This document shows positions 8,366 through 61,176 of a stretch of 64,000 nucleotides of DNA, one piece after another. The notes beneath the pieces were generated by a model. It had not been told where the DNA came from. It saw only the letters and a program-made list of their open reading frames with translations, and ran no database searches. The DNA comes from an uncultured Caldilineaceae bacterium (GTDB lineage Bacteria; Chloroflexota; Anaerolineae; 4572-78; J111), in assembly GCA_964443075.1 (NCBI GenBank), contig CAYUCB010000001.1, positions 23,778-87,777 of the forward strand, read 5' to 3'. The position numbers and the translations under genes were made by a program. How positions within the stretch are numbered: the first letter of the stretch is position 1; each line of letters opens with the position of its first letter.

Positions 8366-8393
8366 GAAAATAACTCCTATAATCGTTTGTAAC

Positions 8394-13884: not shown

Positions 13885-13966
13885 AATTGTGAATTGTGAA
13901 TGGTGAATTACGAATTGTGAACGATAAACAATTAACCATTCACAATTCACTATTCACCATTCACTA
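13885..13966. repeat. TTCAC-rich inverted/direct repeat element (aattgtgaattgtgaatggtgaat ... ccattcacaattcactattcaccattcactat)
   Basis: Direct reading. Shares the 'attcaccattcactattcacaatt' motif with 27693..27732 and the 'cattcaccc' repeats at 16912..16945. Confidence 0.65.
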
Positions 13967-22566: not shown

Positions 22567-22640
22567 GGGTGGCTGAAGGGGCTCGAACCCTTAGCCTTCT
22601 GGGCCACAACCAGATGCTCCACCATTGAGCTACAGCCACC
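22567..22640 (-). tRNA. tRNA-His (GTG)
   Basis: Manual fold: acceptor GGTGGCT/AGCCACC, anticodon loop TTGTGGC, T-loop GGTTCGAGCC. No G-1 or CCA encoded. Confidence 0.8.
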
Positions 22641-22655
22641 ATAAGCCTGCGGCGA

Positions 22656-22728
22656 TGCCGCATACGGGATTCGAACCCGTGTTACCGCCTTGAGAGGGCG
22701 GCGTCCTGGGCCACTAGACGAATGCGGC
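22656..22728 (-). tRNA. tRNA-Glu (CTC)
   Basis: Manual fold: acceptor GCCGCAT/ATGCGGC, anticodon loop CTCTCAA, TTCGAATCC T-loop. Confidence 0.8.
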
Positions 22729-22743
22729 CAATTGCTTGAGGCA

Positions 22744-22828
<85 letters not shown>

Positions 22829-24901: not shown

Positions 24902-24902
24902 C

Positions 24903-25754
24903 ATGACCACCCGCAAAATTAAACCTCTGCCGGTTGATTTGACCTGGATACTTTTTGACTTGGGGCCGCGCAAACTTGTGTTGGTTGAAGGGGCTGATGA
25001 TGTTGAGGTTTTTCAAATATGGTATCGGGACCGCCGGAGTCAAATAGAATTTTATGCGGCGGAAGGGTACTCCAGTGTTGAGGTATTTTTAACGGAAATA
25101 CTCAACTATAGTTCCACCCGGCAAGCCTATGGCTTTATTGATCGAGATTTTCGTAGTGAAGCCGAAGTTGAGGCGCAATTAGCTAATCCTGAAACGCGCC
25201 TTTTTATCTTGCGTCGTTACGCCTTGGAGAACTATTTATTAGACCCAAGAGCTGTATTTGAAGAATTAAGCCTCTTATACCCCGGTCAAAATTTACAAAT
25301 TACCGATGTATCAGATATGACTCGTGATTTGCTTAATCTGTGCTCTCAACTCAAACCTATTATGGCGGCCAACTGGGTTTTTTGGGATGAAAATCTTGTC
25401 AGAGATACCAACCGTATCAACTATTTTTCGATAGGCTTTCCAACCAATAACCGGCTTTTGTTAATCCAAGAAATGGCTAAAAAGTTAGAGTGGGTGGAAG
25501 CAGAGGCCGAACGCGGTATTTTAGAGAAAGAGACTTTTTTAGAAACCGCATTAGCTCATCTGGATTCTGCCTACTGCTACATTGATGGAAAACGATTACT
25601 AAGGTTATTGGGACAAACGTATCATATTCCTCATTTGGGCCATTTCCGTCGCCTCTTGGCTCGAACTACCCAGCAATTTGAATTGCCCCCCGACATTCAG
25701 ACGATTGTTGAAAAACGTATCCTCGGTCGAGGCGGCGAAGAGCAAGCCTTGTGA
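24903..25754 (+). CDS. DUF4435/TOPRIM (OLD-family-like) nuclease-domain protein, PARIS AriB-like
   Basis: 'LVLVEGADDVEVF' TOPRIM Glu and 'GFIDRDF' DxD. Separated from the upstream ATPase by 1 nt. Confidence 0.6.
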   Translation: MTTRKIKPLPVDLTWILFDLGPRKLVLVEGADDVEVFQIWYRDRRSQIEFYAAEGYSSVEVFLTEILNYSSTRQAYGFIDRDFRSEAEVEAQLANPETRLFILRRYALENYLLDPRAVFEELSLLYPGQNLQITDVSDMTRDLLNLCSQLKPIMAANWVFWDENLVRDTNRINYFSIGFPTNNRLLLIQEMAKKLEWVEAEAERGILEKETFLETALAHLDSAYCYIDGKRLLRLLGQTYHIPHLGHFRRLLARTTQQFELPPDIQTIVEKRILGRGGEEQAL

Positions 25755-30672: not shown

Positions 30673-30762
30673 GGAGGGATGGCAGAGCGGTTTAATGCGG
30701 TGGTCTTGAAAACCATTGAGGCCGCAAGGTCTCCGGGGGTTCGAATCCCTCTCCCTCCGCCA
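30673..30762 (+). tRNA. tRNA-Ser (TGA), CCA encoded
   Basis: Manual fold: acceptor GGAGGGA/TCCCTCC, anticodon loop CTTGAAA, long variable arm, TTCGAATCC; ends GCCA. Confidence 0.8.
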
Positions 30763-30850
30763 GAACAATGAACAATGAACAATGAACAATTAGTAATGAA
30801 CAAAGGGCTATTTTTGAAAATTCTTGTTCATTACTAATTGTTAATTTGTA
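30763..30850. repeat. (gaacaat)4 tandem heptamer followed by a 17-bp inverted repeat (caattagtaatgaacaa / ttgttcattactaattg) between the two tRNA-Ser genes
   Basis: Direct reading. Confidence 0.6.
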
Positions 30851-30853
30851 TAT

Positions 30854-30942
30854 GGGGAGGTGCCAGAGTGGACGAATGGGACCGCCTGCTAAGTGGTTGT
30901 CGGGGTAACTCTCGACCGTGGGTTCGAATCCCACCCTCCCCG
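30854..30942 (+). tRNA. tRNA-Ser (GCT)
   Basis: Manual fold: acceptor GGGGAGG/CCTCCCC, anticodon loop CTGCTAA, long variable arm, TTCGAATCC, discriminator G; short terminator hairpin follows (30957..30985). Confidence 0.75.
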
Positions 30943-33515: not shown

Positions 33516-34802
33516 CTACCCAATCATCTCCAGCCCCCCCATATAGGGCTGTAACACCTCCGGCAGCACCACACGACCATCGGCCTGCTGGTAATTTTCC
33601 AGAATGGCAATCATCAAGCGCCCCGGCGGCAGGCCGCTGCCGTTGAGGGTGTGCATAAATTCGGGTTTAGCCCCGGCCTCGGGCCGAAAACGCAGGTTGG
33701 CCCGCCGGGCTTGAAAATCGGTCACATTGCTGCAACTGCTAATTTCCATCCACTCGCCCTGACCGTGTTCGCCGGGCACCCAGGCTTCCAAATCGTACTT
33801 TTTGGCGGCGGCAAAACCCAGGTCGCCGGTGCAGATTTGCACCACCCGGTGGGGCAGATTCAGGCGGCGGCAGAGGTCTTCGGCGTTGGCCACAATCTCT
33901 TCCAGGTGGGTGTAGCTCTCTTCGGGCCGGGTGTAATGGTACATCTCCACCTTTTCAAACTGATGGACGCGCTTAATGCCGCGCACGTCGCGCCCGGCGC
34001 TCATCTTCTCCCGCCGAAAGCAGGGGGTGTGGGCCAGGTATTTGATGGGGAGTTGGTCGGCCTCTAAAATTTCATCGGCAAACAGGTTGGTTAGGGGCAC
34101 TTCGGCGGTGCCGATAAACCAGTAATCCTCTTCGGCGTCGTGGTACATATTATCGCGGAACTTGGGCAGGTGGGCCGCGCCAATCATGGCCTGCTCGCGC
34201 ACCATAAAGGGTGGGTAGATTTCGGTGTAGCCGTGTTCGCGCACGCCCACATCAATAAACCAATTCGCCAGGGCGCGATGCAGCGCCGCGCCCGCCCCTT
34301 TGAAGACGTAAAAGCGGGTGCCGCTCATCTTGACCCCGCGCTCAAAATCAATAATGCCCAGCCCCTCGCCTAATTCCCAGTGCGGTTTGGGGGCAAAATC
34401 AAAGGTGGGCGGCTGGCCCCAGCGCCGCACCTCAAGGTTGTGGTTCTCGTCCGGGCCAACCGGCACGCCGGGGCCGGGCATGTTGGGCACGTATAACTGC
34501 CGGTCGAGCAGGTCGGCCTCAATTTGGCGCAGAGTTTCATCAAGTTGGCTGATTTTATCGCCCAGCCCGGCCATTTCGGCCTTTTTAGCCTCCGCTTCGG
34601 CCTTTTTGCCCTCGCGCATCAACAGGCCGATGGCTTTGCTGCCGCTGTTGCGTTCCTGGCGCAGCGCCTCCACCTCGCGTAAAATATCCCGCCGCTGCCG
34701 GTCTAACTCTAAAATCTCGTCAATCGGCGCTTCGGTGTTCAAATCGCGCAGGGCCGCTTTCACCTGCTCCGGGTTTTCGCGGATAAAGTTTAGGTCTAAC
34801 AT
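33516..34802 (-). CDS. serS: Seryl-tRNA synthetase
   Basis: N-terminal coiled-coil 'MLDLNFIRENPEQVKAALR' and class II core motifs. Start taken at MLDLN. Confidence 0.9.
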   Translation of the reverse strand: MLDLNFIRENPEQVKAALRDLNTEAPIDEILELDRQRRDILREVEALRQERNSGSKAIGLLMREGKKAEAEAKKAEMAGLGDKISQLDETLRQIEADLLDRQLYVPNMPGPGVPVGPDENHNLEVRRWGQPPTFDFAPKPHWELGEGLGIIDFERGVKMSGTRFYVFKGAGAALHRALANWFIDVGVREHGYTEIYPPFMVREQAMIGAAHLPKFRDNMYHDAEEDYWFIGTAEVPLTNLFADEILEADQLPIKYLAHTPCFRREKMSAGRDVRGIKRVHQFEKVEMYHYTRPEESYTHLEEIVANAEDLCRRLNLPHRVVQICTGDLGFAAAKKYDLEAWVPGEHGQGEWMEISSCSNVTDFQARRANLRFRPEAGAKPEFMHTLNGSGLPPGRLMIAILENYQQADGRVVLPEVLQPYMGGLEMIG

Positions 34803-34879
34803 CAGTTCCTCCTTATGGTCAATTACAATTGGTATCAGGGTAATCAGGTAGCAAGTGTAGCAAGGTTGCATTTGCTACC

Positions 34880-35165
34880 CTGCTACTTGCTACCCTGTAA
34901 ACAAAAACCCCCGCCCGTAAAAGGGCGAGGGCTAACTCGCGGTGCCACCTTTTTTTGCCGGGGGCTGGCCCCGGCAATCTCTCGGCGCGATAACGGGCGC
35001 ACCCGGAGCGACTCATCGCCGCCGGCTCAAGAGCGGAATTCAGCCTTCCCTTTGCGCGCCTCGCACCAACCGGCGCGTCTCTGAGGCCAGGGAAGTGGCT
35101 TACTTTTCTCCATCACAGCCGTTAAAGGGATTATAGCATAACCATTTAATTGCGCAACCGGGATG
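34880..35165 (-). ncRNA. Probable T-box riboswitch leader for serS (Ser specifier)
   Basis: Minus-strand -10 'tataat' at ~35130-35135. AGAGA motif, 'GAAUUCCG' candidate specifier with the Ser codon UCC. T-box sequence 'AAAAAAAGGUGGCACCGCGAG' with a UGGC bulge matching discriminator G of both tRNA-Ser genes. Followed by terminator gccctcgccc-tttta-cgggcggggg + UUUUU (plus 34901..34935). Confidence 0.6.
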
Positions 35166-48856: not shown

Positions 48857-50617
48857 ATGACCGATATTGTTGAAAAATTACAGGCAACCTTTCCGGCGGG
48901 TATAACCGGGCGCACTGAATTTCAAGGGGACCTGACTTTGCATGTCGCCCCCGAAAATTGGTCCGAGGTGGCCCTTTTTTTACGTGATGACCCGGACATG
49001 CAGTATGACCTGCTGGTTGACGTGTACGGCACCGACCGGCTCAAGTTGGGCCAGTCGCCCCGTTTTGCCGCTAACTACGAATTATATTCTATCCTCCACA
49101 ACAAATTTTTACGGATTATCGTTGCCGCCCCCGACCCGGCGATCACCGGCAATGGCGCAGATGCCTTACCGACCCTCTCTACGGTGACGAATGTTTGGCC
49201 TACAGCCGATTGGCTGGAGCGCGAAACCTACGACCTGATGGGTCTTAATTTTAAGGGCCACCCCTGGATGCACCGGATTATGATGCCCGATAATTGGGTG
49301 GGCCACCCCCTGCGCAAAGATTATGCTCTGGGCGGTGAGCCGGTCTATTTTAGCCATGACCGCCATAACCCCCGTTTTGCTCACCTGGGCAAAGAAATTA
49401 TGGTGGGGCCATCTTACATGACCGACCTGCCCGAAGACATGGACAGCGACGAGCATATGGTCATCAACCTGGGGCCGCATCACCCGGCCACGCACGGAGT
49501 ACTGCGTCTGGCGGTTGAACTGGATGGCGAGGTGGTGCTAAAAGTTAGCCCGGAACTGGGCTACCTGCACTCCGGCTTTGAGAAAACCGGCGAAAATAAA
49601 CGCTACGAAAAATTCATCCCCTACTGCGACCGGATGGATTACGCCGCGCCGATGAACAACAACCTGGCCTACGTGTTGACGGTTGAGCGCTTGCTGGAGG
49701 TGGAAATTCCTGAGTACGCTCAATACGTGCGGGTTATCTGCGCCGAGTTGCAACGTATCGGCAGCCACATGATTTGGCTGGGGACTCACGCCATGGATGT
49801 CAGCGGTACCGGCCACGCCCTGGTCATGTACTGCTTTAACATGCGCGAGCGCATCCTTGATCTGTTTGAAATGGTCTGCGGCGCGCGGATGACCACCAGC
49901 TACTTTAGCGTGGGCGGCTTGCGTTGGCCGCTGCCCGGCGCATTTATCGAGTCTACCCGCGCTTTTTTAAAGGAATTTACCTGGAACCTTAAAGAGTTTG
50001 AGACCATGCTGACTCGCAACCCCATCTGGTTGAGCCGAACCAAGGGCGTGGGTTTTCTGCGAGATAAAGAGGCCATTGGCCTGGGCATCACCGGGCCGCT
50101 GCTGCGGGCCGCCGGCGTGCCGCTCGATTTGCGCAAAGTGCGCCCTTATTCCGGTTACGATCAGTTTGATTTTGACATTCCCACCTCTACCAACGCCGAT
50201 TGCTACGCTCGCTACGAGGTGCGGATTCTGGAGTTGGGCCAGAGCATGCGGATCATTGAACAGGCCCTCAACAAACTCAAACCCGGCCCCTACCGCACCG
50301 AAGACCGCAAAGTGGCCTTGCCCCCCCGCGAAGAAATTACCACCAGTATGGAATCGCTCATTCACCACTTTAAACTGGTCACCGAAGGCTATCGCCCGCC
50401 GGTGGGGCAGATTTACAATGTGGCTGAAAACCCCAAAGGCTGGTTGGGCTTTGGCCTTATCAGTGATGGCACGTCCGTGCCGCACCGCTTGCGGGTGCGC
50501 GGCCCCTCGTTTGTTAACCTCCAAGCCACCGACCCGATGGCCCGCCATGGCTACATGTCGGACTTGATTACCATTATCGGCTCTATTGATATTGTACTGG
50601 GTGAGGTAGACAGGTAA
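48857..50617 (+). CDS. nuoCD: NADH-quinone oxidoreductase fused subunits C/D
   Basis: N-terminal 30-kDa NuoC-like plus 49-kDa NuoD 'NLGPHHPATHGVLRL'. Confidence 0.9.
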   Translation: MTDIVEKLQATFPAGITGRTEFQGDLTLHVAPENWSEVALFLRDDPDMQYDLLVDVYGTDRLKLGQSPRFAANYELYSILHNKFLRIIVAAPDPAITGNGADALPTLSTVTNVWPTADWLERETYDLMGLNFKGHPWMHRIMMPDNWVGHPLRKDYALGGEPVYFSHDRHNPRFAHLGKEIMVGPSYMTDLPEDMDSDEHMVINLGPHHPATHGVLRLAVELDGEVVLKVSPELGYLHSGFEKTGENKRYEKFIPYCDRMDYAAPMNNNLAYVLTVERLLEVEIPEYAQYVRVICAELQRIGSHMIWLGTHAMDVSGTGHALVMYCFNMRERILDLFEMVCGARMTTSYFSVGGLRWPLPGAFIESTRAFLKEFTWNLKEFETMLTRNPIWLSRTKGVGFLRDKEAIGLGITGPLLRAAGVPLDLRKVRPYSGYDQFDFDIPTSTNADCYARYEVRILELGQSMRIIEQALNKLKPGPYRTEDRKVALPPREEITTSMESLIHHFKLVTEGYRPPVGQIYNVAENPKGWLGFGLISDGTSVPHRLRVRGPSFVNLQATDPMARHGYMSDLITIIGSIDIVLGEVDR

Positions 50618-51105
50618 TGTGGTCTGATAAAGAACAACAAGCCCTTGACGAAATTTTGAAAAAGTACCCGCCCGAGCGCAAAATGTCGGCGGTTTTGCCG
50701 GCGTTATATCTGGCCCAGCAGGAGAAAAACTGGTTGGATGAGGCTGACATCGCCGCCGTGGCTGAGGCGCTGGATATATCTGTCACCCACGTTCATTCCA
50801 TCATCGGTTTTTATACCCTCTTTCGCAAAGAGCCGGTGGGCAAATATATGCTGCAAGTTTGCACCGATTTGCCTTGCGCCCTGCGCGGCGCGGAAGCCTT
50901 TTTCAAGCGGCTGTGCCAGCGCATGGAACTCGGCCCCGAAGGCGGTACCACCGCCGATGGCCTTTTTACCGTCGAGCCGGTGGTTTGCCTGGCCGCCTGC
51001 GATAAAGCGCCATGTATGCAGCTTAACCTGGATTATTACGAGAACCTGACCGACGCGGAAATTGACGCGATCATCGCCCGGCTGCGGGCAGCGGAGACAA
51101 AGTAG
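50617..51105 (+). CDS. nuoE: NADH-quinone oxidoreductase subunit E
   Basis: 'CTDLPCALRGA ... CLAACDKAPCMQLN' 2Fe-2S motifs. Confidence 0.9.
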   Translation: MWSDKEQQALDEILKKYPPERKMSAVLPALYLAQQEKNWLDEADIAAVAEALDISVTHVHSIIGFYTLFRKEPVGKYMLQVCTDLPCALRGAEAFFKRLCQRMELGPEGGTTADGLFTVEPVVCLAACDKAPCMQLNLDYYENLTDAEIDAIIARLRAAETK

Positions 51106-51117
51106 GCTGAGAAGTAA

Positions 51118-51399
51118 TTGGGGGTCATGATGTCATTAAAAACCACATCGGCCTATATTACCACCATTAATCCTGACCATACGGTGGTACTGCCGCCAGA
51201 AATGCCGGTAGGGGCAACCATTGCCGTAATTGTTATGCCTGAAACAGTTGTTGGGGCTGACGACATGGCTCGCCACACTCGTTTTGAGGCTACCTTATCA
51301 GCTATTCGGGCTGCTTCTGCCGCTCAACCAATAGTTATTTCTGATGAGAAATTGGATATCTTGATTGAGCAAGCGCGGAAGGCTTCTAATTTTCTGTGA
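51118..51399 (+). CDS. Antitoxin-like small protein inside the nuo operon
   Basis: Small ORF overlapping a truncated PIN-like ORF. Confidence 0.35.
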   Translation: MGVMMSLKTTSAYITTINPDHTVVLPPEMPVGATIAVIVMPETVVGADDMARHTRFEATLSAIRAASAAQPIVISDEKLDILIEQARKASNFL

Positions 51400-51559
51400 C
51401 CCTTATGATGATAAAGTGATTGCTACCGCTATCTTTGGGATGGCTGATTATTTAGTAACGGAAGATAACGACTTGAGAACCCCTGCTATCCTCAATGCGC
51501 TTTTTCAATCTGGCATTGAGGTTATTTCGATGACTGAGTTAATCAAGCTGCTTGATTAA
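51365..51559 (+). pseudogene. Truncated PIN-domain (VapC-like) toxin remnant
   Basis: 'DDKVIATAIFGMADYLVTEDNDL' matches only the C-terminal half of PIN domains (D..IAA.A...A.LVT.D.D). Only 64 aa. Confidence 0.45.
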
Positions 51560-51644
51560 TAAGGATACCGAAAAAGCAGGTTATCGTTATGAAGATTTAC
51601 GATGAATGATATTATACTTGTAAAGTAATTCTTGGAGGTGTTGG

Positions 51645-51899
51645 ATGGTTGCGCCTTTTGAAATGACCAAAGCCTACGAGGAAGTGATTGATTTTATCGC
51701 CGCCGGAACGGATCCTGGTAGTATTATTGCCTTTCAACCCTCAGTTGCGGTTAAAGAGCGTATCGCTGATTTAATTTACCGTGAGAAAGCGGTAGGGCTT
51801 TCAGCCGAAGAAAAGGCTGAATTAGACAATTACATGCAACTTGAGCATTTAATGCGGTTAGCCAAAGCTCGCGCCCGTCAATACCTTGTCAATGAGTAG
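51645..51899 (+). CDS. Hypothetical small protein preceding the HNH endonuclease
   Basis: Overlaps the HNH gene start by 14 nt. Confidence 0.4.
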   Translation: MVAPFEMTKAYEEVIDFIAAGTDPGSIIAFQPSVAVKERIADLIYREKAVGLSAEEKAELDNYMQLEHLMRLAKARARQYLVNE

Positions 51900-52332
51900 T
51901 CATGTTAGTGCGGCTTTGCGCCAGTTAGTGTTTGTTCGGGCTGATTATTTGTGTGAATACTGTTTGATTCATGAAGATGACACCTTTTTTGGTTGTCAGG
52001 TTGACCATATCATTAGCGTAAAACATGGGGGTGCTACCGAAGCGAATAATTTGGCTTACGCTTGCGGTTTTTGCAATCGTCAAAAAGGCAGTGATATTGG
52101 TTCTATCTCTCGCCAAAGCGGACAAATCATCCGGTTTTTTAATCCGCGAACAGATAATTGGTCTGACCATTTTGAACTTGAGGGTGCTGTTATTAAATCT
52201 TTAACCGAAATTGGTGAGGTTACGGCTCGAATTTTGGGGTTTAATGATAGTGATCGCCTTTTAGAACGGCGAATCTTGATGGCTGTGGGGCGGTATCCCA
52301 CTATTGATGCATTGGCTCGTATGAGAGGATAG
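51886..52332 (+). CDS. HNH endonuclease
   Basis: 'CEYCLIHEDDTFFGCQVDHIISVKHGGATEANNLAYACGFCNRQKGS' zinc-HNH motif. Confidence 0.8.
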   Translation: MSMSSHVSAALRQLVFVRADYLCEYCLIHEDDTFFGCQVDHIISVKHGGATEANNLAYACGFCNRQKGSDIGSISRQSGQIIRFFNPRTDNWSDHFELEGAVIKSLTEIGEVTARILGFNDSDRLLERRILMAVGRYPTIDALARMRG

Positions 52333-52333
52333 T

Positions 52334-53605
52334 ATGGCCAACAAATTCCTAGAAAAACACGTCCTATTTCGACACCGCGACGTAGAAAATATCCGCGATA
52401 TTGACGTTTACCTGGCTAACGATGGCTACAAAGCGCTGGAACGCGCCCTGAAAGAGTCAACCCCCGAGGGGGTGATGAATGAAGTAAAAGCCTCTGGTCT
52501 TCGCGGGCGTGGTGGAGCCGGTTTTCCGGCGGGCGTCAAGTGGAGTTTCATCCCCAAAAATATCTCGCCCAAATACATTGTGGTTAACGGCGATGAAAGC
52601 GAACCCGGCACCTTTAAAGACCGGGAGATTATGGAGAGCAACCCCCACCAATTCATCGAGGGGGTGATTTTGTGCGCTTACGCCGTCGGCGCGGAAACGG
52701 CTTACATTTACGGGCGCGGCGAATTTAAACCCGTTTTTAACGGCTCTCAAGGGCTGCAACAGGCGGTTGACGCGGCTTACGCCAAAGGATTTTTGGGTAA
52801 AAACATCCTCGGCAGCGATTTTTCAATGGATATTTACCTGCACCTCGGTGCGGGAGCCTACATTTGCGGCGAAGAAACCGCTCTGCTCAACAGCCTGGAA
52901 GGGCTGATGGGCCAGCCGCGCAGCCGCCCTCCTTTTCCGGCGGTAGAAGGGTTGTACGCCAAGCCGACCGTCATCAACAACGTCGAAACGCTGACCAATG
53001 TACCGCCGATTGTGCTCAATGGGGCGCAGTGGTATCGCCAATTTGGCACCGAAAAAAGCCCCGGCACCAAAATCTTCAGCCTCAGTGGGCGGGTCAACCG
53101 GCCCGGCAATTATGAGCTGCCTCTGGGCCTGCCCATCCGCTATCTGATTGAGGAATGTGGCGGCGGTATTATTGAGGGCAAACAGGTCAAAGGGATTTTA
53201 CCGGCAGGGGCCTCATCGGCCATTATTGGGCCGGATAAGCTGGATACGCCGATGGATTACGAAGCGATGGCCGCCGCCGGAACGATGCTCGGTTCGGCCT
53301 CCTTCATTATTCTCGATGAAACCATTGACGCGGTTTGGGCCGCCGAGAAAAACGTGAAATTCTTTAAGCACGAAAGCTGCGGCAAATGCAGTCCCTGCCG
53401 CGAAGGGACTCACTGGTTAGCCGGTGTTTACGCCAAACTGCGTGAGGGTCGCGGCTCTCAAGAGGATGTGCAAATGCTGACCACCATCATCGAACAGATG
53501 GAAGGCAACTGCTTCTGCCTGCTGGGCGAGTTTGTGGTTCCCGGTGTGCGCACCAGTTTGAAGTTATTTGCTAATGAGTATGAGGCGCTGGCGGTGGATA
53601 AGTAG
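52334..53605 (+). CDS. nuoF: NADH-quinone oxidoreductase subunit F
   Basis: 'GRGGAGFPAGVKW', 'ESCGKCSPCREG'. Confidence 0.9.
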   Translation: MANKFLEKHVLFRHRDVENIRDIDVYLANDGYKALERALKESTPEGVMNEVKASGLRGRGGAGFPAGVKWSFIPKNISPKYIVVNGDESEPGTFKDREIMESNPHQFIEGVILCAYAVGAETAYIYGRGEFKPVFNGSQGLQQAVDAAYAKGFLGKNILGSDFSMDIYLHLGAGAYICGEETALLNSLEGLMGQPRSRPPFPAVEGLYAKPTVINNVETLTNVPPIVLNGAQWYRQFGTEKSPGTKIFSLSGRVNRPGNYELPLGLPIRYLIEECGGGIIEGKQVKGILPAGASSAIIGPDKLDTPMDYEAMAAAGTMLGSASFIILDETIDAVWAAEKNVKFFKHESCGKCSPCREGTHWLAGVYAKLREGRGSQEDVQMLTTIIEQMEGNCFCLLGEFVVPGVRTSLKLFANEYEALAVDK

Positions 53606-53814
53606 TTGGGTGGAATTACTGGAATTATTTTTGAATCAACTCAGAGGGTGTTTCTTAAAGGTCATTCTGAGGCCGAAGGCCGAAGAATCCCTGAAACGGC
53701 CTCTTGCAAGTGGCGGTTTTAGGGACTCTTCGCTCTCGTTGGTCGCTCTGAGTAACATGGTGAGGTTGATTTTTAACCAGGTTCGATTTAAGAAACACGC
53801 TCTCAGGAGAAACT

Positions 53815-55521
53815 ATGGCAATTTGGAAATCATATAGAGTATCCGACATCATAACCGAGATTGAGGATAAAAAATTTGTTCTTCCCGTTATTCAAAGACG
53901 CCTTGTCTGGGATGAGGAAAAAATGGAACTCCTCTTTGATACCTTACTTAAAGGTGACTCCTTTGGTGGAATAATGGTTATTGAAGAAGAGAAAAATAGT
54001 AAACCACTTTTTAGTTTTAGAACTTTCACAAAAGATGGTGATATTATAGCTTCTATACAGGTTGACCAACTAACACAACTTCAAGACTTCGTAATTGACG
54101 GACAACAAAGACTTCAATCATTTTACATTGGTCTGAAAGGTAGTATTAATGGGCAAGTACTATACTTTGACTTGTTTAGTGACTACAAGATTCAATTTGA
54201 GTTCAAATTTGAAAACGATGCTAATAAATTACCCAAACAATCAAAAGATAATAATGCTGATAGAGCAATCCCGGAACATAATTGGTATTTAGCAAGTAGC
54301 TTACTAAAAAGATTGAAGGAAACTCACGATAATGAGCAGGTTGCCAGCGAAATTATCGCAAATCAGAATATAATAGACGACATCAAGAAGACCCACATAA
54401 ATAGAAATGTTAGCGCATTCTTTAGAAATGTTATAACTTCCGAGACTCTTGGTATATCTAAGGTTGTCATAAACAAATCCTACGACGAAACTGCTAACAG
54501 GCAAAGAATAGTTGAATTATTCAGAAGATTAAATGACGGCGCGACAAAACTTTCATCGTTTGATTTGGTTGCATCTAAGCTTAAAGGATTTGCCTGGGAG
54601 ATGGAAGGCTTTTTAGAAGAAACATTAAGGAACTACGAAGAAATCGGACTTTCTCAAGATAACCTGATAAAACTTATTTTTCTCCTTCAAGGCAATCACA
54701 ATAAGGAAATGGCTTCTATTGAAGGGACTGATGCTGATTTTGCAATCAAAAATAGAGAAAGAATAAACTCTACCTTAAAAAGTCTTAAAGACTTTTTAGT
54801 TCACTCCAAACTATATGATTATTACAAAGACGGCAATCGTTCTTTCATTCCCTTGTTTTTTATAGCGCATCACATTTTTCATAAACAAATCAGTAATGAT
54901 GAAGTAAATAGATTTTTCGACAACTTTGATGCCGGTAATACAGAATTTTCAAAAATGAAAATATGGGTTTTCCATTCTTTGATTAATGGCGTTTTCCGTA
55001 GCAGAGGAGTAGGTTGGATACCTTATAAAACAGGAATAAGAAAACTTCTTGAAGAAATACGAAAATATAAAAACTTCGATTTTCCTGTTGAAAAACTATT
55101 TCAAGTCTACCGGGACCATCCAATTACTTTTACGACACAATATGGAACTTCTAATTTAGACCAACTTGACAATTCATTTTTGTTTTACTTAATGTATGAT
55201 CTCAATCGGACTATAAGAATTCAAGATACTGATCACATAATGCCAAAATCAATTTTAGAAGCAAAACATTATGATCAGTCAAAAATTAACAGTATCAAAA
55301 ACTATCAGCTCATAGACTTTGGAACTAATCGGGGGGAGAAAAATGCCAAACCTTTTAAGGATTGGATTAATAATCCGGCATACGTTTCTGACAAACAGGC
55401 ATTTGTAAAGAGACATTTAATTCCGTCCGATGAAAGAATTTGGATTGAGGATAAGTTTGAAGAATTTATAAATGCAAGAGCGCAACTTATTCTTACTCAA
55501 ATGAGAAACTCTATACAATAA
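53815..55521 (+). CDS. GmrSD-family (DUF262 + DUF1524) type IV restriction-like nuclease
   Basis: N-terminal 'VIDGQQRLQS' (DUF262 DGQQR), C-terminal 'DTDHIMPKS' (DUF1524 His-Me finger). Strongly AT-rich relative to the flanking nuo genes. Confidence 0.75.
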   Translation: MAIWKSYRVSDIITEIEDKKFVLPVIQRRLVWDEEKMELLFDTLLKGDSFGGIMVIEEEKNSKPLFSFRTFTKDGDIIASIQVDQLTQLQDFVIDGQQRLQSFYIGLKGSINGQVLYFDLFSDYKIQFEFKFENDANKLPKQSKDNNADRAIPEHNWYLASSLLKRLKETHDNEQVASEIIANQNIIDDIKKTHINRNVSAFFRNVITSETLGISKVVINKSYDETANRQRIVELFRRLNDGATKLSSFDLVASKLKGFAWEMEGFLEETLRNYEEIGLSQDNLIKLIFLLQGNHNKEMASIEGTDADFAIKNRERINSTLKSLKDFLVHSKLYDYYKDGNRSFIPLFFIAHHIFHKQISNDEVNRFFDNFDAGNTEFSKMKIWVFHSLINGVFRSRGVGWIPYKTGIRKLLEEIRKYKNFDFPVEKLFQVYRDHPITFTTQYGTSNLDQLDNSFLFYLMYDLNRTIRIQDTDHIMPKSILEAKHYDQSKINSIKNYQLIDFGTNRGEKNAKPFKDWINNPAYVSDKQAFVKRHLIPSDERIWIEDKFEEFINARAQLILTQMRNSIQ

Positions 55522-55557
55522 AGAGGTCGTCAGATTGTAAAAACGTAAGGCTATAGA

Positions 55558-55760
55558 GATGATAGGGGATGCGGTAAAACTGGCTAAAATAGAGTCTCTT
55601 GAATTAACGGTTGAAGAATTGGCCCAGATATTGCTGACACTTGACTAGGACGAACTGGATACTTTAGAGATTCTTTTAAACCCGCAAGCGTGTCTCACGA
55701 TTGAACAATCTCTGCAAGACATTGAGGAAGGTCATGCCCTTCCGTTTGAAAAATGGTAAC
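55558..55760 (+). pseudogene. Possible frameshifted YefM/Phd-like antitoxin remnant
   Basis: Two short frames: MIGDAVKLAKIESLELTVEELAQILLTLD and ...LDTLEILLNPQACLTIEQSLQDIEEGHALPFEKW. The latter resembles the YefM C-terminus. Confidence 0.3.
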
Positions 55761-55797
55761 GATGGATGAGTTATCAAATTGATTGGAAAGGTTCCCA

Positions 55798-58458
55798 ATG
55801 CCAGATAGCACTGTTACTGTAACCATAGATGGCATTCAAGTCGCCGTTCCCAAAGGAACGTTAATTGTCGAAGCGGCCAAACGGGTAGGCCTTGAAATCC
55901 CGGTTTTTTGTTACCACGCCAAGCTTGACCCCGTGGGGATGTGCCGCATGTGCCTGGTAGAAGTGGGCACGCCGGTGATGGACCCGGCGACCAAACAGCC
56001 TACTTTAGACCAAGATGGCAAACCGGTTATCCGCTTTATGCCTAAACCCACCACCGCCTGCACCACCCCGGTGACCGATGGCATGGCCGTTAAGGTCAAT
56101 TCCGAGGCGTCGCTGGCCGACCGCAAGGCGGTACTGGAATTTTTGCTCACCAGCCACCCCCTGGATTGCCCCATTTGCGATAAAGGCGGCGAATGTCCCC
56201 TGCAAGACCTGACCATTCGCCACGGGCCGGGTAACAGCCGCTTTGATTACGAGGACAAGCAGCATTTCCCCAAAAAATATCCGCTGGGCGACCTGATTGT
56301 GCTGGATATGGAGCGCTGTATCATCTGCACTCGCTGCACCCGCTTTCAATCAGAAGTGGCCCACGACCCGGTGCTGGCGGTAGAAGAACGGGGCCGACAC
56401 GCCCATATCGTCAGTTATTCTAACCCGCCCTTTGATAGCCACTATTCCGGCAACACCACCGATGTCTGCCCAGTGGGGGCTTTAACCACCCGCGATTTTC
56501 GCTTTGGGGCGCGAGCCTGGGAACTGACCAATATCCCCAGTATTTGCAACCATTGCAGCGTGGGCTGTAACACCGTTTTGAGCACGCGGGCCGGCCAGAT
56601 TAAACGGGTCATGCCCCGCCAGAACGAAATCGTCAATGAAATTTGGCTGTGCGACAAAGGCCGCTTTGGGCATCACTTTAACGGCAGCCCTAATCGTTTA
56701 ACCACCCCCCTGGTGCGTCAGGGCGACCAGTTGGTTGAAGCGACTTGGGGCGATGCCCTCAGCCTGGTAGCCCGCAAATTTGGCGAAATCAAAACCGCGC
56801 ACGGGCCTAACGCTTTGGGCGGTCTGGCCGGAGCGCGCCTATCGAATGAAGACCTCTACCTCTTTCAAAAATTCTTCCGCCAGGTGATTGGCACTCACAA
56901 TATAGACCATCGTATCGGCCTGAGTGCGGCCCTGGAAGATGAAACCGCCTACACCGTAGGGGTCGGCGTGGGCACCGACCTGGGGCGCGTAGGCAAAGGT
57001 TCTACCATTCTGGTTGTCGGTTGTGATCTGGATCAGGAAGCCCCTATTCTTTACCTGCGGGTGGCCGGAGCGGCGGTTAAGCGAGGCGCGCATGTAATTA
57101 ATGCCGGCGGGCGGCGCACCAAGCTCGATGCCCAGGCCAAAACCAGCCTGCACTACCGTTATGGGACGGCGACGCACCTGGCTCTGGGGCTGTTAGCTTC
57201 GGTGGTGCAGCAGGGCTTGGTGGCTCAAGCTTGGGTTGACAGCCATACCACCGGTTTGGCCGATTTAGCGGAGTCATTAAAGAATTACACCCCTGAGCAG
57301 GTGGCGGCAGTAACGGGTATCGCTGCCTCTGAAATTGAGGCCGCCGCCAAAGCCTTTGCCGAGGCTCAGAACGGTATCATCCTCTTTGGCATGGAAGCGG
57401 GCAACGACCCGGCCCTGCGAGCGGCTTTAGAAAATTTGGCTCTGATTACCGGCCATGCCGGTAAACCTGATAGCGGCCTCATCGCCGTACTGCCTCACGT
57501 CAACAGCCGGGGCGCGGCGGATATGGGCCTGGTGCCTCACCGTCTGCCCGGTTATGTGCCGGTTGAAGCGGGTCAAGAAGGGCTGTCAGCGGTAGAAATG
57601 TTGACTGGCAAGGTCAAGGCGATGCTGATTGCCGGGGCCGACCCCGCCGCCGAAAGCGCTGCTTACAAAGCGTCTCTGGAGCAGTTAGACTTTTTGGTGG
57701 TGCAAGAGTTGTTCCTCACCGAAACGGCTCAACTGGCCGATGTGGTGCTGCCCGCGCAGGGCGTGGCCGAGCGTGACGGCTCTTTCACCAACGCCGAGCG
57801 CCGGGTGCAGGCGTTTGACTCCGGCGTTCCCGCTCCGGGCAAGGCCTGGGCCGACTGGTTGATTGTGTCGGTACTGGCGGGGCAGATGGGGACCGATTGG
57901 CCTTACGCTTCAGCCGATGGGGTGATGGCTGAAATTACCCAAACTGTGCCGCTTTACGCCGCTACAAAATTTGAAAATCTGGTCGCGCCGGTTTCGCTGA
58001 CCCGCCAAACGTCGCACTACATTTACTCCGGCATGAGTTTTACCGCTGATGTGCGCGAAGGCGTGCAGTGGCCTACGCTGGCCGAGCAAGAGTCGGCCAA
58101 AATTGCTTTGCGCTTCATCGCCCCGGCCCAACCGTCGGACGACAGCGGCTTGACTCTGGTAGCGCCACGTTTTCTTTATGATGATGGTCGTCTGCTGGCC
58201 GAGACCGAGCTGGTTCAGCCGCATCTTCACCGGCCCAAACTGCTGATTTCCCCGGCAGACGCGCAACAGTTAGGGCTTAATAACGGCGATATGGTAACAG
58301 TCTCGCAAAACGGGAGCGCCGTAACCCTGCCGGTGCAGGTCAACCGGCAATTAAGCCAGGGCGTGGCCCTCACCCCTCGCAATCTGGCCGGTCGCCCGGC
58401 GGAGCAGCTTTTGGGGCCGGGTGGTTTGTACGGAACGGTTAAAATTAAGAAGGATTAA
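55798..58458 (+). CDS. nuoG: NADH-quinone oxidoreductase subunit G
   Basis: N-terminal 2Fe-2S/4Fe-4S Cys clusters and a molybdopterin-oxidoreductase-like domain. ATG at 55798. Confidence 0.9.
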   Translation: MPDSTVTVTIDGIQVAVPKGTLIVEAAKRVGLEIPVFCYHAKLDPVGMCRMCLVEVGTPVMDPATKQPTLDQDGKPVIRFMPKPTTACTTPVTDGMAVKVNSEASLADRKAVLEFLLTSHPLDCPICDKGGECPLQDLTIRHGPGNSRFDYEDKQHFPKKYPLGDLIVLDMERCIICTRCTRFQSEVAHDPVLAVEERGRHAHIVSYSNPPFDSHYSGNTTDVCPVGALTTRDFRFGARAWELTNIPSICNHCSVGCNTVLSTRAGQIKRVMPRQNEIVNEIWLCDKGRFGHHFNGSPNRLTTPLVRQGDQLVEATWGDALSLVARKFGEIKTAHGPNALGGLAGARLSNEDLYLFQKFFRQVIGTHNIDHRIGLSAALEDETAYTVGVGVGTDLGRVGKGSTILVVGCDLDQEAPILYLRVAGAAVKRGAHVINAGGRRTKLDAQAKTSLHYRYGTATHLALGLLASVVQQGLVAQAWVDSHTTGLADLAESLKNYTPEQVAAVTGIAASEIEAAAKAFAEAQNGIILFGMEAGNDPALRAALENLALITGHAGKPDSGLIAVLPHVNSRGAADMGLVPHRLPGYVPVEAGQEGLSAVEMLTGKVKAMLIAGADPAAESAAYKASLEQLDFLVVQELFLTETAQLADVVLPAQGVAERDGSFTNAERRVQAFDSGVPAPGKAWADWLIVSVLAGQMGTDWPYASADGVMAEITQTVPLYAATKFENLVAPVSLTRQTSHYIYSGMSFTADVREGVQWPTLAEQESAKIALRFIAPAQPSDDSGLTLVAPRFLYDDGRLLAETELVQPHLHRPKLLISPADAQQLGLNNGDMVTVSQNGSAVTLPVQVNRQLSQGVALTPRNLAGRPAEQLLGPGGLYGTVKIKKD

Positions 58459-61089: not shown

Positions 61090-61094
61090 ATCGG

Positions 61095-61152
61095 TAGACG
61101 GTAAGCAGTAGACGGTAGACGGGGATTTTTCCCCGTCTACCGTCTACCATCT
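61095..61152. repeat. (gtagacgg)n repeats forming the hairpin gtagacggtagacgggg-attttt-ccccgtctaccgtctac between nuoK and nuoL
   Basis: Direct reading. Confidence 0.6.
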
Positions 61153-61176
61153 ATCCTCTACCCCTGAGGGTGCTCT

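What the first reader, a model, noticed from the sequence alone, without database searches (positions are those of the whole stretch)
53606..55797. AT-rich GmrSD-like (DUF262-DUF1524) type IV restriction gene plus YefM-like pseudogene inserted between nuoF and nuoG
The 568-aa ORF has DGQQR (DUF262) and DHIMP (DUF1524) motifs and a GC content far below the flanking nuo genes. Immediately downstream are two short frames resembling a frameshifted Phd/YefM antitoxin. A defence nuclease embedded in the Complex I operon is a striking insertion site.
Basis: partly seen in the sequence, partly recalled or inferred. Interest (0 to 1): 0.65.

Follow-up and report, generated by a model that had tools for sequence, protein, structure and literature searches.

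The report
BrxU-like restriction gene inside nuo operon
A horizontally acquired, AT-rich gene for a BrxU/GmrSD-type restriction nuclease (a family that cuts modified phage DNA) sits between two Complex I genes of a Chloroflexota bacterium, beside the wreck of an older toxin-antitoxin pair; the gene is a known kind, and its location is one case of a recurring habit in this clade.

Summary
ORF 53815-55521 (568 aa) has the lowest GC in the window (0.33; GC3 0.29, against 0.59-0.69 in the nuo genes). It lies between intact nuoF and nuoG on the same strand.

It is a full-length BrxU-like GmrSD-family protein:
- Pfam GmrSD_N, E 1.7e-22.
- PADLOC HEC-05, E 1.3e-44.
- PDB BrxU 7P9K, E 3e-15 by sequence and 5e-17 by fold.
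- LLFDT, DGQQR and DHIMP motifs are intact.
- Pfam GmrSD_C is below threshold for this sequence but matches 30 of 39 close homologues.

The "YefM-like pseudogene" is real but mis-described. It is one frame with an in-frame TAG, not a frameshift, and it has no Phd/YefM HMM hit. Intact 64-aa homologues precede a ParE-like toxin directly upstream of nuoG in related genomes. Only 17 nt of that toxin survive here. The TA pair was therefore an older resident, and the nuclease gene arrived later as an ORF-only segment of about 1.73 kb.

Close relatives have an empty 56-200 nt nuoF-nuoG spacer. Other Chloroflexota carry PARIS, HEC-01 or TA modules at nuoCD/E/F/G junctions, nearly all co-oriented.

Verdict: a new member of a known family in a moderately interesting recurrent insertion site.

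The parts
52334..53605 (+). nuoF (423 aa), intact. It lacks the ~15-20 aa C-terminal tail present in most close relatives.
   Evidence: Pfam Complex1_51K, SLBB and NADH_4Fe-4S. Tail comparison with L006-L016 and L087.
53640..53806 (.). 167-nt imperfect palindrome (nested inverted repeats) filling most of the nuoF-ORF spacer. It is not part of the imported gene.
   Evidence: Inverted repeats 53640-59/53787-806 (90%) and 53681-706/53707-732 (85%). RNA fold of the 209-nt spacer 53606-53814 that holds it: -74.1 kcal/mol, z = -3.6, 0/200 shuffles. Its right end (53764-53806) matches the leader upstream of the antitoxin in L086, 0/2000 shuffles. No second copy in the window or the fetched loci. No Rfam family.
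53799..55540 (+). Approximate extent of the imported segment (~1.73 kb): Shine-Dalgarno, ORF and about 12-20 nt. Boundaries are uncertain by about 10 nt (left 53799-53807, right 55533-55540).
   Evidence: Nucleotide homology to homologues in other phyla spans only 53803-55508. Removing 53799-55533 restores collinearity with the L086 leader. GC trough.
53805..53809 (+). AGGAG Shine-Dalgarno, 5 nt before the ATG
   Evidence: Read from the sequence. A similar AGGAG sits at the same distance in L001, L003 and L005.
53815..55521 (+). brxU-like GmrSD-family gene (568 aa): N-terminal DUF262 NTPase domain, helical linker, C-terminal DUF1524 His-Me finger nuclease.
   Evidence: PF03235 E 1.7e-22. PADLOC HEC-05 PDLC04151 E 1.3e-44, full length. 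phmmer against PDB BrxU 7P9K E 3.1e-15, residues 10-568 against 9-579. AF2 model pLDDT 79.9, and Foldseek finds only BrxU, E 5e-17, prob 1.0.
53929..53943 (+). LLFDT, the counterpart of the BrxU RLFDS nucleotide-binding motif
   Evidence: LFDTL is invariant in 39 homologues.
54097..54111 (+). DGQQR NTP-hydrolysis motif (residues 95-99)
   Evidence: Invariant in the family. Aligned with DGQQR of BrxU.
55231..55245 (+). DHIMP nuclease motif (residues 473-477), followed by invariant N496 and N505
   Evidence: Invariant D473, H474, I475, P477, N496 and N505. Aligned with DHIYP of BrxU.
55559..55759 (+). Antitoxin-like pseudogene: 66 codons with an in-frame TAG at 55646-55648, where intact homologues have GAG (Glu)
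   Evidence: Sequence. Intact 64-aa homologues P0121 and P0122, 68-72% identical, E 1.5e-17 and 1.2e-15. DNA alignment to L086, L087 and L088.
55766..55782 (+). Remnant of the ParE-like toxin gene: the first 17 nt (ATGAGTTATCAAATTGA). The rest (~275 nt) is deleted.
   Evidence: Aligns to the start of the toxin ORF of L086 (ATGAGTTATCGTATTGA) and L087 (ATGAGTTATAAAATTGA). The L086 toxin is PF15781 ParE-like_toxin, 52.6 bits.
55798..58458 (+). nuoG, intact. The likely start is ATG 55798 (MPDSTVTVTIDG), not the TTG at 55783 that the ORF listing gives.
   Evidence: Pfam. N-terminus aligned with relatives, MSDQVTLTIDG.

Best explanation
The 568-aa ORF encodes a single-chain GmrSD-family enzyme of the BrxU type (PADLOC HEC-05). 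By analogy with BrxU, the N-terminal DUF262 domain (QR, LLFDT, DGQQR and NDG motifs) binds and hydrolyses a nucleotide. This licenses the C-terminal DUF1524 His-Me-finger nuclease (DHIMP...N...N) to degrade DNA carrying modified cytosines, as in phages with 5mC, 5hmC or glucosyl-5hmC. Unmodified host DNA is spared. That would make it a one-gene type IV restriction defence.

The gene is foreign. It entered a Caldilineaceae/Anaerolineae-like Chloroflexota genome as an ORF-only segment of about 1.73 kb. It landed in the nuoF-nuoG spacer, between the leader and the antitoxin gene of a ParE-type toxin-antitoxin pair that already lived there. That TA pair is now dead: the antitoxin has a nonsense codon and the toxin is deleted after codon 6.

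The gene has its own Shine-Dalgarno, no convincing promoter or terminator of its own, and the same orientation as nuo. It is therefore probably transcribed by read-through from the Complex I operon.

Shown here: family membership, intact catalytic motifs, foreign composition, the empty site in relatives, and the older TA. Inferred: substrate specificity, NTP dependence, expression by read-through, and an actual defence role.
For: Family:
- PF03235 E 1.7e-22.
- HEC-05 profile E 1.3e-44 over residues 1-566. HEC-05 is BrxU according to Payne et al..
- BrxU 7P9K by sequence, E 3.1e-15, end to end, with DGQQR and DHIxP aligned.
- Foldseek of the AF2 model finds only BrxU, E 5e-17.
- GmrSD_C matches 30 of 39 close homologues.
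- The catalytic motifs are invariant in the family.
- pN 0.14 against saturated pS 0.85 shows strong purifying selection.

BrxU biochemistry: degradation of 5mC, 5hmC and glc-5hmC DNA with ATP, and loss of defence in the Asp/His mutants of the DHIYP motif (D474, H475), come from Picton 2021 PMC8565348 and Payne 2024.

Foreign origin: GC 0.33 and GC3 0.29 against 0.55-0.59 and 0.59-0.69. The gene has GC 0.31-0.35 in every host, whatever the host GC.

Insertion:
- All 13 relatives with NuoF at least 80% identical (L006-L017, L026) have only about 56-200 nt between nuoF and nuoG and no homologue.
- Homology to other homologues stops at the ORF ends.
- Deleting 53799-55533 restores the L086 arrangement.

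Older TA: L086, L087 and L088.

Homologues elsewhere are lone genes, mostly among defence or mobile genes: MmeI plus integrase, methyltransferase plus UvrD-PDDEXK, an AAA_13 ATPase, and a TA cluster.

No excess of promoter-like or terminator-like sites in the region.
Against: - No experiment on this protein or its subfamily. Identity to BrxU is only about 18-20%, so specificity may differ.
- PF07510 is below threshold on this sequence.
- The RLFDS motif reads LLFDT.
- Expression inside the nuo operon is untested. The long hairpin upstream could attenuate it.
- Only one genome carries this insertion, so selection for it in situ cannot be assessed.
- No insertion mechanism was identified: no significant target-site duplication and no recombinase.
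Confidence: 0.8

Rival explanations
1. Inert passenger. The gene is a recent, neutral or slightly harmful arrival that is silent or not used for defence, tolerated because the nuoF-nuoG spacer is permissive, and headed for the same decay as the neighbouring TA pair.
For: The adjacent TA module and the nuoE-nuoF insert (truncated PIN) are decaying. The insertion is seen in one genome only. GC is unameliorated, which suggests recent arrival.
Against: The ORF is full length (568 aa against 565-567) with every invariant family residue intact, including all catalytic motifs. It has a strong Shine-Dalgarno at the proper distance.
Confidence: 0.12
2. A GmrSD-family enzyme with a different trigger or role. 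It could be SspE-like (sensing of phosphorothioated DNA, nicking) or aimed at another modification, rather than BrxU-like cleavage of modified cytosine.
For: The family is functionally diverse (GmrSD, BrxU, SspE, HEC-06). Identity to BrxU is only about 18-20%. The subfamily is unusually conserved across phyla, 69-78% identity with saturated synonymous sites, which hints at a constrained, specific target.
Against: Only BrxU is recovered from the PDB, by sequence and by fold. The BrxU-type LFD(S/T) motif, said to be absent from SspE, GmrSD and HEC-06, is present. Homologues have no conserved partner genes.
Confidence: 0.15
3. A selfish, homing-type nuclease gene. The ORF spreads by itself, using its HNH nuclease to cut a target and copy itself in, and the conserved nuo operon is a homing site, like the free-standing HNH gene between nuoE and nuoF.
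For: The mobile unit is the bare ORF, with no recombinase, terminal inverted repeats or significant TSD. Many metagenome contigs are only gene-length, 1.8-2.2 kb. A second HNH gene sits at the neighbouring junction. One homologue (L001) also abuts a complex-I-like operon.
Against: Homologue flanks are unrelated to each other, whereas homing needs a conserved target. The closest characterised relative is an experimentally shown defence enzyme. Logan contigs are short in general.
Confidence: 0.05
4. Assembly chimera. The AT-rich segment was joined into the nuo operon by metagenome mis-assembly.
For: The source is probably a MAG contig (one NCBI contig of 96 kb). There is an abrupt GC change.
Against: The segment is flanked on both sides by collinear operon genes. 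The flanks match the arrangement in L086, L087 and L088 to within a few nucleotides. A chimera would break synteny, not sit inside it.
Confidence: 0.02

Closest known systems
BrxU of Escherichia fergusonii pEFER (PDB 7P9K/7P9M; PADLOC HEC-05)
   Same: Same length class (568 aa against 587 aa). End-to-end collinearity: DUF262, helical linker, DUF1524. LFD(S/T), DGQQR and DHIxP motifs. Single-gene system. Embedded co-directionally inside another operon.
   Different: Only about 18-20% identity. It belongs to a separate, very conserved subfamily found mainly in Bacteroidota-like AT-rich contexts. It is embedded in a housekeeping respiratory operon rather than a BREX, Hma or type I RM locus. Its activity is untested.
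GmrSD (Eco94GmrSD / CT596 GmrS+GmrD) type IV restriction enzyme
   Same: Pfam GmrSD_N plus GmrSD_C architecture. Presumed NTP-dependent cleavage of modified-cytosine DNA.
   Different: More distant than BrxU and not recovered in the PDB searches. GmrSD lacks the RLFDS-type motif that this protein keeps as LLFDT.
SspE (phosphorothioate-sensing GmrSD-like nickase)
   Same: DUF262 plus DUF1524 architecture.
   Different: No significant sequence or fold match here. No partner genes are conserved next to homologues.
Core defence hotspots (variable defence cargo between conserved core genes, e.g. Pseudomonas aeruginosa cDHS, PMC10250203) and defence genes embedded in operons (Payne et al. 2024)
   Same: The same pair of core genes (nuoF/nuoG, nuoE/nuoF) brackets different defence or TA cargo in different genomes: BrxU-like, PARIS, HEC-01, VapBC, ParE-type TA and NTase-HEPN. 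Nearly all are co-oriented.
   Different: The site lies inside a housekeeping operon. Cargo is one or two genes with no integrase or tRNA. Some occupants are lineage-resident non-defence genes. No enrichment test against other operon junctions was done.
ParDE/RelE-family type II toxin-antitoxin modules
   Same: A small acidic upstream ORF lies 5-6 nt before a 96-aa ParE-like toxin (PF15781) in L086 and L087.
   Different: In the window the pair is dead. The antitoxin matches no Pfam or NCBIfam antitoxin family.

Membership tests
GmrSD family / BrxU-like (PADLOC HEC-05) | N-terminal DUF262 (Pfam GmrSD_N, PF03235) domain | tested here: met
   80.9 bits, E 1.7e-22, residues 10-256 covering 2-198 of 199 profile positions.
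GmrSD family / BrxU-like (PADLOC HEC-05) | DGQQR NTP-hydrolysis motif | tested here: met
   Residues 95-99. Invariant in 39 homologues. Aligned to DGQQR of BrxU.
GmrSD family / BrxU-like (PADLOC HEC-05) | RLFDS nucleotide-binding motif (BrxU-type) | tested here: inconclusive
   The aligned segment reads LLFDT. LFD is kept, Ser becomes Thr and Arg becomes Leu. LFDTL is invariant in the subfamily. The functional consequence is unknown.
GmrSD family / BrxU-like (PADLOC HEC-05) | C-terminal DUF1524 His-Me-finger nuclease domain with DHIxP motif | tested here: met
   DHIMP at 473-477, plus invariant N496 and N505. Aligned to BrxU DHIYP. Foldseek hit to BrxU over the full length, E 5e-17. PF07510 matches 30 of 39 homologues at 69-78% identity, best 6e-7. 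Caveat: on this sequence alone PF07510 scores 14.7 bits, E 0.03, below the 23-bit cutoff.
GmrSD family / BrxU-like (PADLOC HEC-05) | Match to the HEC-05 (BrxU) profile over the full length | tested here: met
   PDLC04151 E 1.3e-44, residues 1-566 against 20-592 of 600. PDLC04150 E 7e-28.
GmrSD family / BrxU-like (PADLOC HEC-05) | NTP-dependent cleavage of modified-cytosine DNA; phage protection | not testable with these tools
   Known for BrxU only.
Phd/YefM antitoxin | Match to PF02604 PhdYeFM_antitox or the corresponding NCBIfam models | tested here: not met
   No hit for the read-through 66-aa sequence or its 36-aa C-terminal part at E up to 10 in Pfam, nor for the 66-aa sequence at E up to 1 in NCBIfam. 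No hit for the intact homologues P0121 and P0122 at E up to 5.
Type II TA module of the ParE/RelE toxin class (remnant) | Small antitoxin ORF immediately upstream of a ParE/RelE-fold toxin | tested here: met
   Met in the homologous loci. In L086 the antitoxin is 64-258 and the toxin is 265-555, PF15781 at 52.6 bits against a 28-bit cutoff. L087 is the same. In the window only 17 nt of the toxin remain and the antitoxin carries a TAG.
Defence/TA integration hotspot between core genes | The same flanking core genes bracket variable, unrelated cargo in related genomes, with empty sites in others | tested here: met
   nuoF-nuoG: median 64 nt, 15 of 76 loci above 400 nt. nuoE-nuoF: 8 of 74. nuoCD-nuoE: 6 of 71. 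nuoG-nuoH: 0 of 59. Cargo: AriA/AriB (L019), HEC-01A/B (L007), PDC-S03 (L021), VapBC-like (L021, L035), RelB-like/ParE plus NTase-HEPN (L068, L050). Enrichment relative to other operons was not tested.
Transposon / IS / integron cassette | Recombinase or transposase, terminal inverted repeats, target-site duplication or attC | tested here: not met
   No such gene lies between nuoF and nuoG. Homology to other copies ends at the ORF. The only boundary repeat (GCTCTCAG / GTCGTCAG, 6 of 8) is within my own estimate of chance for a 6-of-8 match near the two boundaries. The 167-nt palindrome predates the insertion.

The most novel reading that the evidence does not exclude
The junctions around nuoE, nuoF and nuoG of Anaerolineae/Caldilineae-type Chloroflexota may be a true integration hotspot inside a housekeeping operon. 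Promoter-less, co-oriented one- or two-gene defence and TA cassettes (BrxU-like, PARIS, HEC-01, VapBC, ParE-type, NTase-HEPN) would be repeatedly gained, replaced and eroded there. They would ride on the constitutive transcription of Complex I and move as bare ORFs by a mechanism that leaves no recombinase or repeat signature.
Probability: 0.3. Interest if true: 0.55.

Novelty: new member of a known kind. Interest (0 to 1): 0.35.

Why it matters
The gene adds a well-conserved, untested subfamily to the BrxU/GmrSD type IV restriction enzymes. Members are 69-78% identical across Chloroflexota, Bacteroidota and Zixibacteria and are AT-rich in every host. The subfamily could be a source of modification-dependent nucleases.

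The more general point is genomic. In this clade the spacers between the N-module genes of Complex I are tolerated landing sites for defence and addiction modules. The window preserves a layered history: an older TA pair, then a nuclease gene, then decay of the TA pair. If the hotspot reading holds up in a census, defence genes can be housed and expressed inside essential operons, outside classical islands. That matters for how defence systems are searched for in uncultured phyla.

Tried and rejected
- Exact-sequence look-up of the source contig failed twice, and the cluster look-up gave no accession or name. The organism is known only as Caldilineaceae/Anaerolineales-like, from 90% NuoF identity.
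- A metagenome scan for the antitoxin found nothing. The informative loci came from the protein database instead.
- Target-site duplication or terminal repeats: the repeat finder at both boundaries gave only short chance-level repeats. The best candidate (6 of 8) is not significant by my own estimate.
- Is the 167-nt palindrome a multicopy MITE? There is no second copy in the window or in 87 loci, and no Rfam family. I recalled similar 'GTCATTCTGAG...GAAGAATC' repeats from other genomes, but could not verify this, so it is not used.
- Is the palindrome or the downstream ORF part of the mobile unit? Rejected, because homologues in five other loci share only the ORF.
- Integron attC reading of the upstream hairpins seen in the window, L001 and L003: the sequences are unrelated and there is no integrase. 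Left as unexplained.
- Plasmid or phage vector: only 23-27% identical relatives were found.
- dN/dS could not be computed because synonymous sites are saturated.
- A literature search for nuo-operon insertions in Chloroflexi found nothing relevant.
Full report
**1. What is at the coordinates**

The + strand of 48.8-63 kb carries a Complex I operon:
- fused nuoCD, 48857-50617
- nuoE, 50617-51105
- nuoF, 52334-53605
- nuoG, 55798-58458 (ORF listing reports an upstream TTG at 55783)
- nuoH and nuoI, followed by ORFs of the size and order expected for nuoJ and nuoL (not scanned)

Between nuoF and nuoG lie 2.19 kb that do not belong to the operon:
- a 209-nt spacer
- a 568-aa ORF, 53815-55521
- a 276-nt tail

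The ORF has GC 0.332 and GC3 0.290. The nuo genes have GC 0.52-0.585 and GC3 0.585-0.685. It is the lowest-GC 1.7-kb stretch of the whole window, z = -3.5.

**2. What the protein is**

- Pfam gives GmrSD_N (PF03235) at E 1.7e-22.
- GmrSD_C (PF07510) reaches only 14.7 bits, E 0.03, against a 23-bit cutoff, even when the C-terminal half is scanned alone.
- Other evidence settles the C-terminal domain:
  - PADLOC's HEC-05 profile matches residues 1-566 at E 1.3e-44.
  - phmmer against all PDB sequences returns one real hit, BrxU (7P9K), E 3.1e-15. The alignment runs from residue 10 to 568 against 9-579 of 587, with DGQQR on DGQQR and DHIMP on DHIYP.
  - An AlphaFold2 model (mean pLDDT 79.9) searched with Foldseek against the PDB finds only the BrxU chains: E 5e-17 to 1e-14, probability 1.0. 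The next hit has E 0.9. The global TM-score is low (0.36). This is expected, because AlphaFold does not reproduce the relative domain positions of BrxU (Payne et al.).
  - 30 of 39 homologues that are 69-78% identical to the window protein do match PF07510, best 6e-7.
- In an alignment of those 39 sequences the invariant residues include Q27-R28, L40-F41-D42-T43-L44, D95-G96-Q97-Q98-R99, N240-D241-G242, D473-H474-I475, P477, N496 and N505.
- According to Payne et al. (bioRxiv 10.1101/2024.01.29.577857), the tested HEC-05 representative is 99.2% identical to BrxU.
- According to Picton et al. (PMC8565348), BrxU degrades DNA containing 5mC, 5hmC or glucosyl-5hmC in an ATP-dependent manner and not unmodified DNA. 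The motifs are RLFDS, DGQQR and DHIYP. Payne et al. report that mutating the Asp and His of DHIYP (D474, H475) abolishes phage resistance.
- The window protein has LLFDT in place of RLFDS.

I therefore file it as a BrxU-like member of the GmrSD family. Its activity is inferred, not shown.

**3. The family elsewhere**

- The database search found 1193 relatives. The best 120 are full length and 69-78% identical. Those with a source name come from Bacteroidota (Elizabethkingia, Capnocytophaga, Hydrotalea, Rikenellaceae) and Zixibacteria.
- In seven neighbourhoods the gene is always a lone gene with unrelated neighbours:
  - an integrase and an MmeI-type R-M gene
  - a methyltransferase, a UvrD-PDDEXK helicase-nuclease and HTH/M78 genes
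  - an AAA_13 ATPase
  - a cluster of TA genes
  - redox genes
  - once, the end of a complex-I-like (Mbx/Hyf-type) operon
- Nucleotide similarity between the window and these loci (about 72%) begins about 10 nt before the ATG and ends inside the ORF, 53803-55508. The flanks share nothing.
- The gene has GC 0.31-0.35 in every host, while host flanks range from 0.31 to 0.59.
- Synonymous sites between copies are saturated (pS about 0.85) while pN is about 0.14. The subfamily is old and under strong purifying selection. The window copy did not come from any sampled donor recently, yet it is compositionally unameliorated in its present host.
- Known plasmids and phages carry only 23-27% identical relatives.

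**4. The insertion site**

- A scan of species-representative genomes with NuoF returned 80 Chloroflexota loci. The best matches are Caldilineaceae/Anaerolineales MAGs at 90% identity, so the source species itself is not in the set.
- None of these loci has the nuclease gene.
- All thirteen loci with NuoF at least 80% identical have only about 56-200 nt between nuoF and nuoG. That is the empty site.
- These native spacers share no sequence with the window's spacers. They often consist of heptamer-repeat palindromes.
- Most relatives also have a 15-20 aa C-terminal NuoF tail (…QPQKNLVHMYL*) that the window protein (…AVDK*) lacks.

**5. The downstream "pseudogene"**

- 55559-55759 is one reading frame of 66 codons with an in-frame TAG at 55646-55648. 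It is not a frameshift.
- Searching the read-through sequence found two intact 64-aa proteins, 68-72% identical, E 1.5e-17 and 1.2e-15. They have Glu (GAG) where the window has TAG.
- Neither they nor the window sequence match Phd/YefM or any other antitoxin model.
- Their contexts are decisive:
  - In L086 the 64-aa ORF is followed after 6 nt by a 96-aa ParE-like toxin (PF15781, 52.6 bits). After a further 22 nt comes the start of nuoG, MSDQVTLTIDGVEV.
  - In L087 the tail and stop codon of nuoF are followed after 34 nt by the same antitoxin and toxin.
  - In L088, a 20-kb contig with nuoA-B-CD-E-(PMT_2)-F-antitoxin-G-H and NuoF 82% identical, the antitoxin is disrupted by a ~95-nt insertion with terminal inverted repeats. 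The toxin carries an internal deletion that keeps both ends, MSYKIEMAK|ENFYRLLRRVLGY*.
- In the window the toxin is reduced to its first 17 nt, 55766-55782, ATGAGTTATCAAATTGA.

So a ParE-type TA pair was resident at the nuoF-nuoG junction in this subclade. It has decayed independently at least twice.

**6. Order of events and boundaries**

- The 63-nt leader upstream of the antitoxin in L086 matches the window just upstream of the nuclease ORF, 53764-53806. That is the right arm of the palindrome, and 0 of 2000 shuffles reach the score.
- The leader's last part matches the window just upstream of the antitoxin pseudogene.
- Joining window 53764-53798 to 55534-55562 reproduces the L086 leader.
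- The nuclease gene was therefore inserted into the TA leader as a segment of about 1.73 kb, consisting of its Shine-Dalgarno, the ORF and a dozen or so bases.
- The 167-nt palindrome 53640-53806 is at least partly older than the insertion and is not part of the imported unit. The spacer that holds it (53606-53814) folds at -74.1 kcal/mol, z = -3.6.
- I found no significant target-site duplication, no terminal repeats and no recombinase. The insertion mechanism is unknown.

**7. The wider pattern**

Across the 80 loci, the junction spacers are as follows.

| Junction | Median spacer | Loci above 400 nt |
|---|---|---|
| nuoF-nuoG | 64 nt | 15 of 76 |
| nuoE-nuoF | not noted | 8 of 74 |
| nuoCD-nuoE | not noted | 6 of 71 |
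| nuoG-nuoH | not noted | 0 of 59 |

Contents of the larger inserts include the following.

| Locus and junction | Cargo |
|---|---|
| L019, nuoF-nuoG | AT-rich AriA+AriB (PARIS) pair, AriB E 2.5e-29 |
| L007, nuoE-nuoF | HEC-01A/B |
| L021, nuoE-nuoF | Uma2-like PDC-S03 |
| L021, nuoF-nuoG | RHH+PIN |
| L035, nuoCD-nuoE | MazE/AbrB+PIN |
| L068, nuoF-nuoG | RelB-like antitoxin, ParE fragment, and an NTase-HEPN protein |
| L050, nuoF-nuoG | NTase-HEPN protein |

- Nearly all of these are co-oriented with nuo.
- Other inserts have native GC and look like lineage-resident genes: a ~1000-aa PMT_2 membrane protein, a PHP-type protein and an OB-fold secreted protein.
- The window's own nuoE-nuoF junction holds a second foreign block, described under things noticed.

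The nuclease gene is thus one instance of a recurrent use of these junctions by defence and addiction genes. I did not test whether the frequency exceeds that at other operon junctions.

**8. Mechanism and confidence**

- Best explanation (confidence 0.8 for identity and history, lower for function): a horizontally acquired, intact, BrxU-like type IV restriction gene, expressed by read-through within the nuo operon. It has a Shine-Dalgarno AGGAG 5 nt before the ATG. The region shows no excess of promoter-like or terminator-like sites.
- Rivals:
  - an inert passenger
  - a family member with another specificity
  - a homing-type selfish nuclease, which is unlikely because the flanks of homologues are unrelated
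  - an assembly chimera, which is very unlikely because both flanks are collinear with relatives to within a few nucleotides

**9. Novelty and score**

- The protein is a new member of a known family.
- The TA remnant is ordinary.
- The location is unusual, but it is part of a pattern visible in public genomes.
- A specialist would find the layered junction history and the hotspot-inside-an-operon idea mildly interesting rather than surprising.
- Interest: 0.35.

Noticed in passing
window 51118-52332: A second foreign block (GC 0.40-0.47) fills the nuoE-nuoF junction, all on the + strand. It holds a 93-aa ORF, a 64-aa fragment matching only the C-terminal end of a PIN_3 domain (a truncated toxin, so a decayed VapBC-like pair), an 84-aa ORF overlapping a 148-aa HNH endonuclease (PF01844 E 6e-12; weak PtuB and IscB-HNH matches), and then nuoF 1 nt later. 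None of the 80 related loci has these genes.
   Followed up: partly
window 23873-25754: An AT-rich (about 0.41) two-gene PARIS-like system: a 342-aa AAA_15/AAA_21 ATPase (AriA E 3.8e-26) plus a 283-aa DUF4435 protein (AriB E 3e-13).
   Followed up: partly
window 7208-10364 (- strand): The second-lowest GC region of the window (0.37). It holds two STAND-type NTPases (AAA_16, nSTAND1/2; 385 and 656 aa) and a 301-aa ORF with no family. There are no PADLOC hits. It may be another acquired island.
   Followed up: partly
window 53640-53806: A 167-nt nested imperfect palindrome lies directly upstream of the nuclease ORF. It is a single copy in the window and has no Rfam family. Its right end is shared with the TA leader of L086. 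Its function is unknown (attenuator, RNA stabiliser, operator or a MITE relic).
   Followed up: partly
L019 1495-3828; L007 5219-7000: In related Chloroflexota, the nuoF-nuoG junction holds an AT-rich AriA/AriB (PARIS) pair (L019). The nuoE-nuoF junction holds HEC-01A/HEC-01B (L007). Both are co-oriented with nuo.
   Followed up: yes
L088 about 8190-8385: The resident antitoxin is disrupted near its 3' end by a ~95-nt element with terminal inverted repeats (TCAGTAAATCCA...TGGATCTACTGA). The ParE-like toxin has an internal deletion that keeps both ends. This is an independent decay of the same TA pair.
   Followed up: partly
window 61093-61162; L006 about 8320-8390; L007, L008 nuoF-nuoG spacers: Intergenic spacers of this clade are often palindromes built from heptamer repeats (GTAGACG-type in the window, L006 and L007; TAATTAC-type in L008). 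Similar heptad arrays occur at window 13884-13975, 27685-27733 and 27924-28006.
   Followed up: no
homologues P0002-P0120; loci L004, L090, L092, L093: The BrxU-like subfamily is unusually conserved for a defence gene: 69-78% protein identity across phyla with saturated synonymous sites. Many metagenome contigs carrying it are barely longer than the gene (1.8-2.2 kb), as if assemblies break at its ends.
   Followed up: partly
L001 1-7704: One homologue (77% identical, GC 0.35 in a GC 0.59 host) lies right after a complex-I-like membrane-bound hydrogenase-type operon (Proton_antipo_M, NADHdh, Complex1_49kDa). This is probably coincidence, but it is the second respiratory-complex neighbourhood among eight.
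   Followed up: no
L005 5630-5908 and 7789-8066; L001 5807-5962; L003 5926-5965: Homologues are preceded or flanked by host-specific repeats. L005 has a 283-nt direct repeat (74%) on both sides of the gene. L001 has an array of CATCTA-N5-TAGATG palindromes upstream. L003 has a perfect 19+19-nt palindrome 35 nt upstream. The sequences are unrelated to each other.
   Followed up: no
window 53590-53605: NuoF ends ...EYEALAVDK*, without the 15-20 aa tail (...QPQKNLVHMYL*) found in most close relatives. The tail may have been lost when the spacer was remodelled. L017 also has a short end.
   Followed up: partly
window 34918-35125 (-); 22568-22828 (-); 30673-30942 (+): A T-box leader (106 bits) lies upstream of the 451-aa ORF 33516-34871. 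There are also two tRNA clusters.
   Followed up: no
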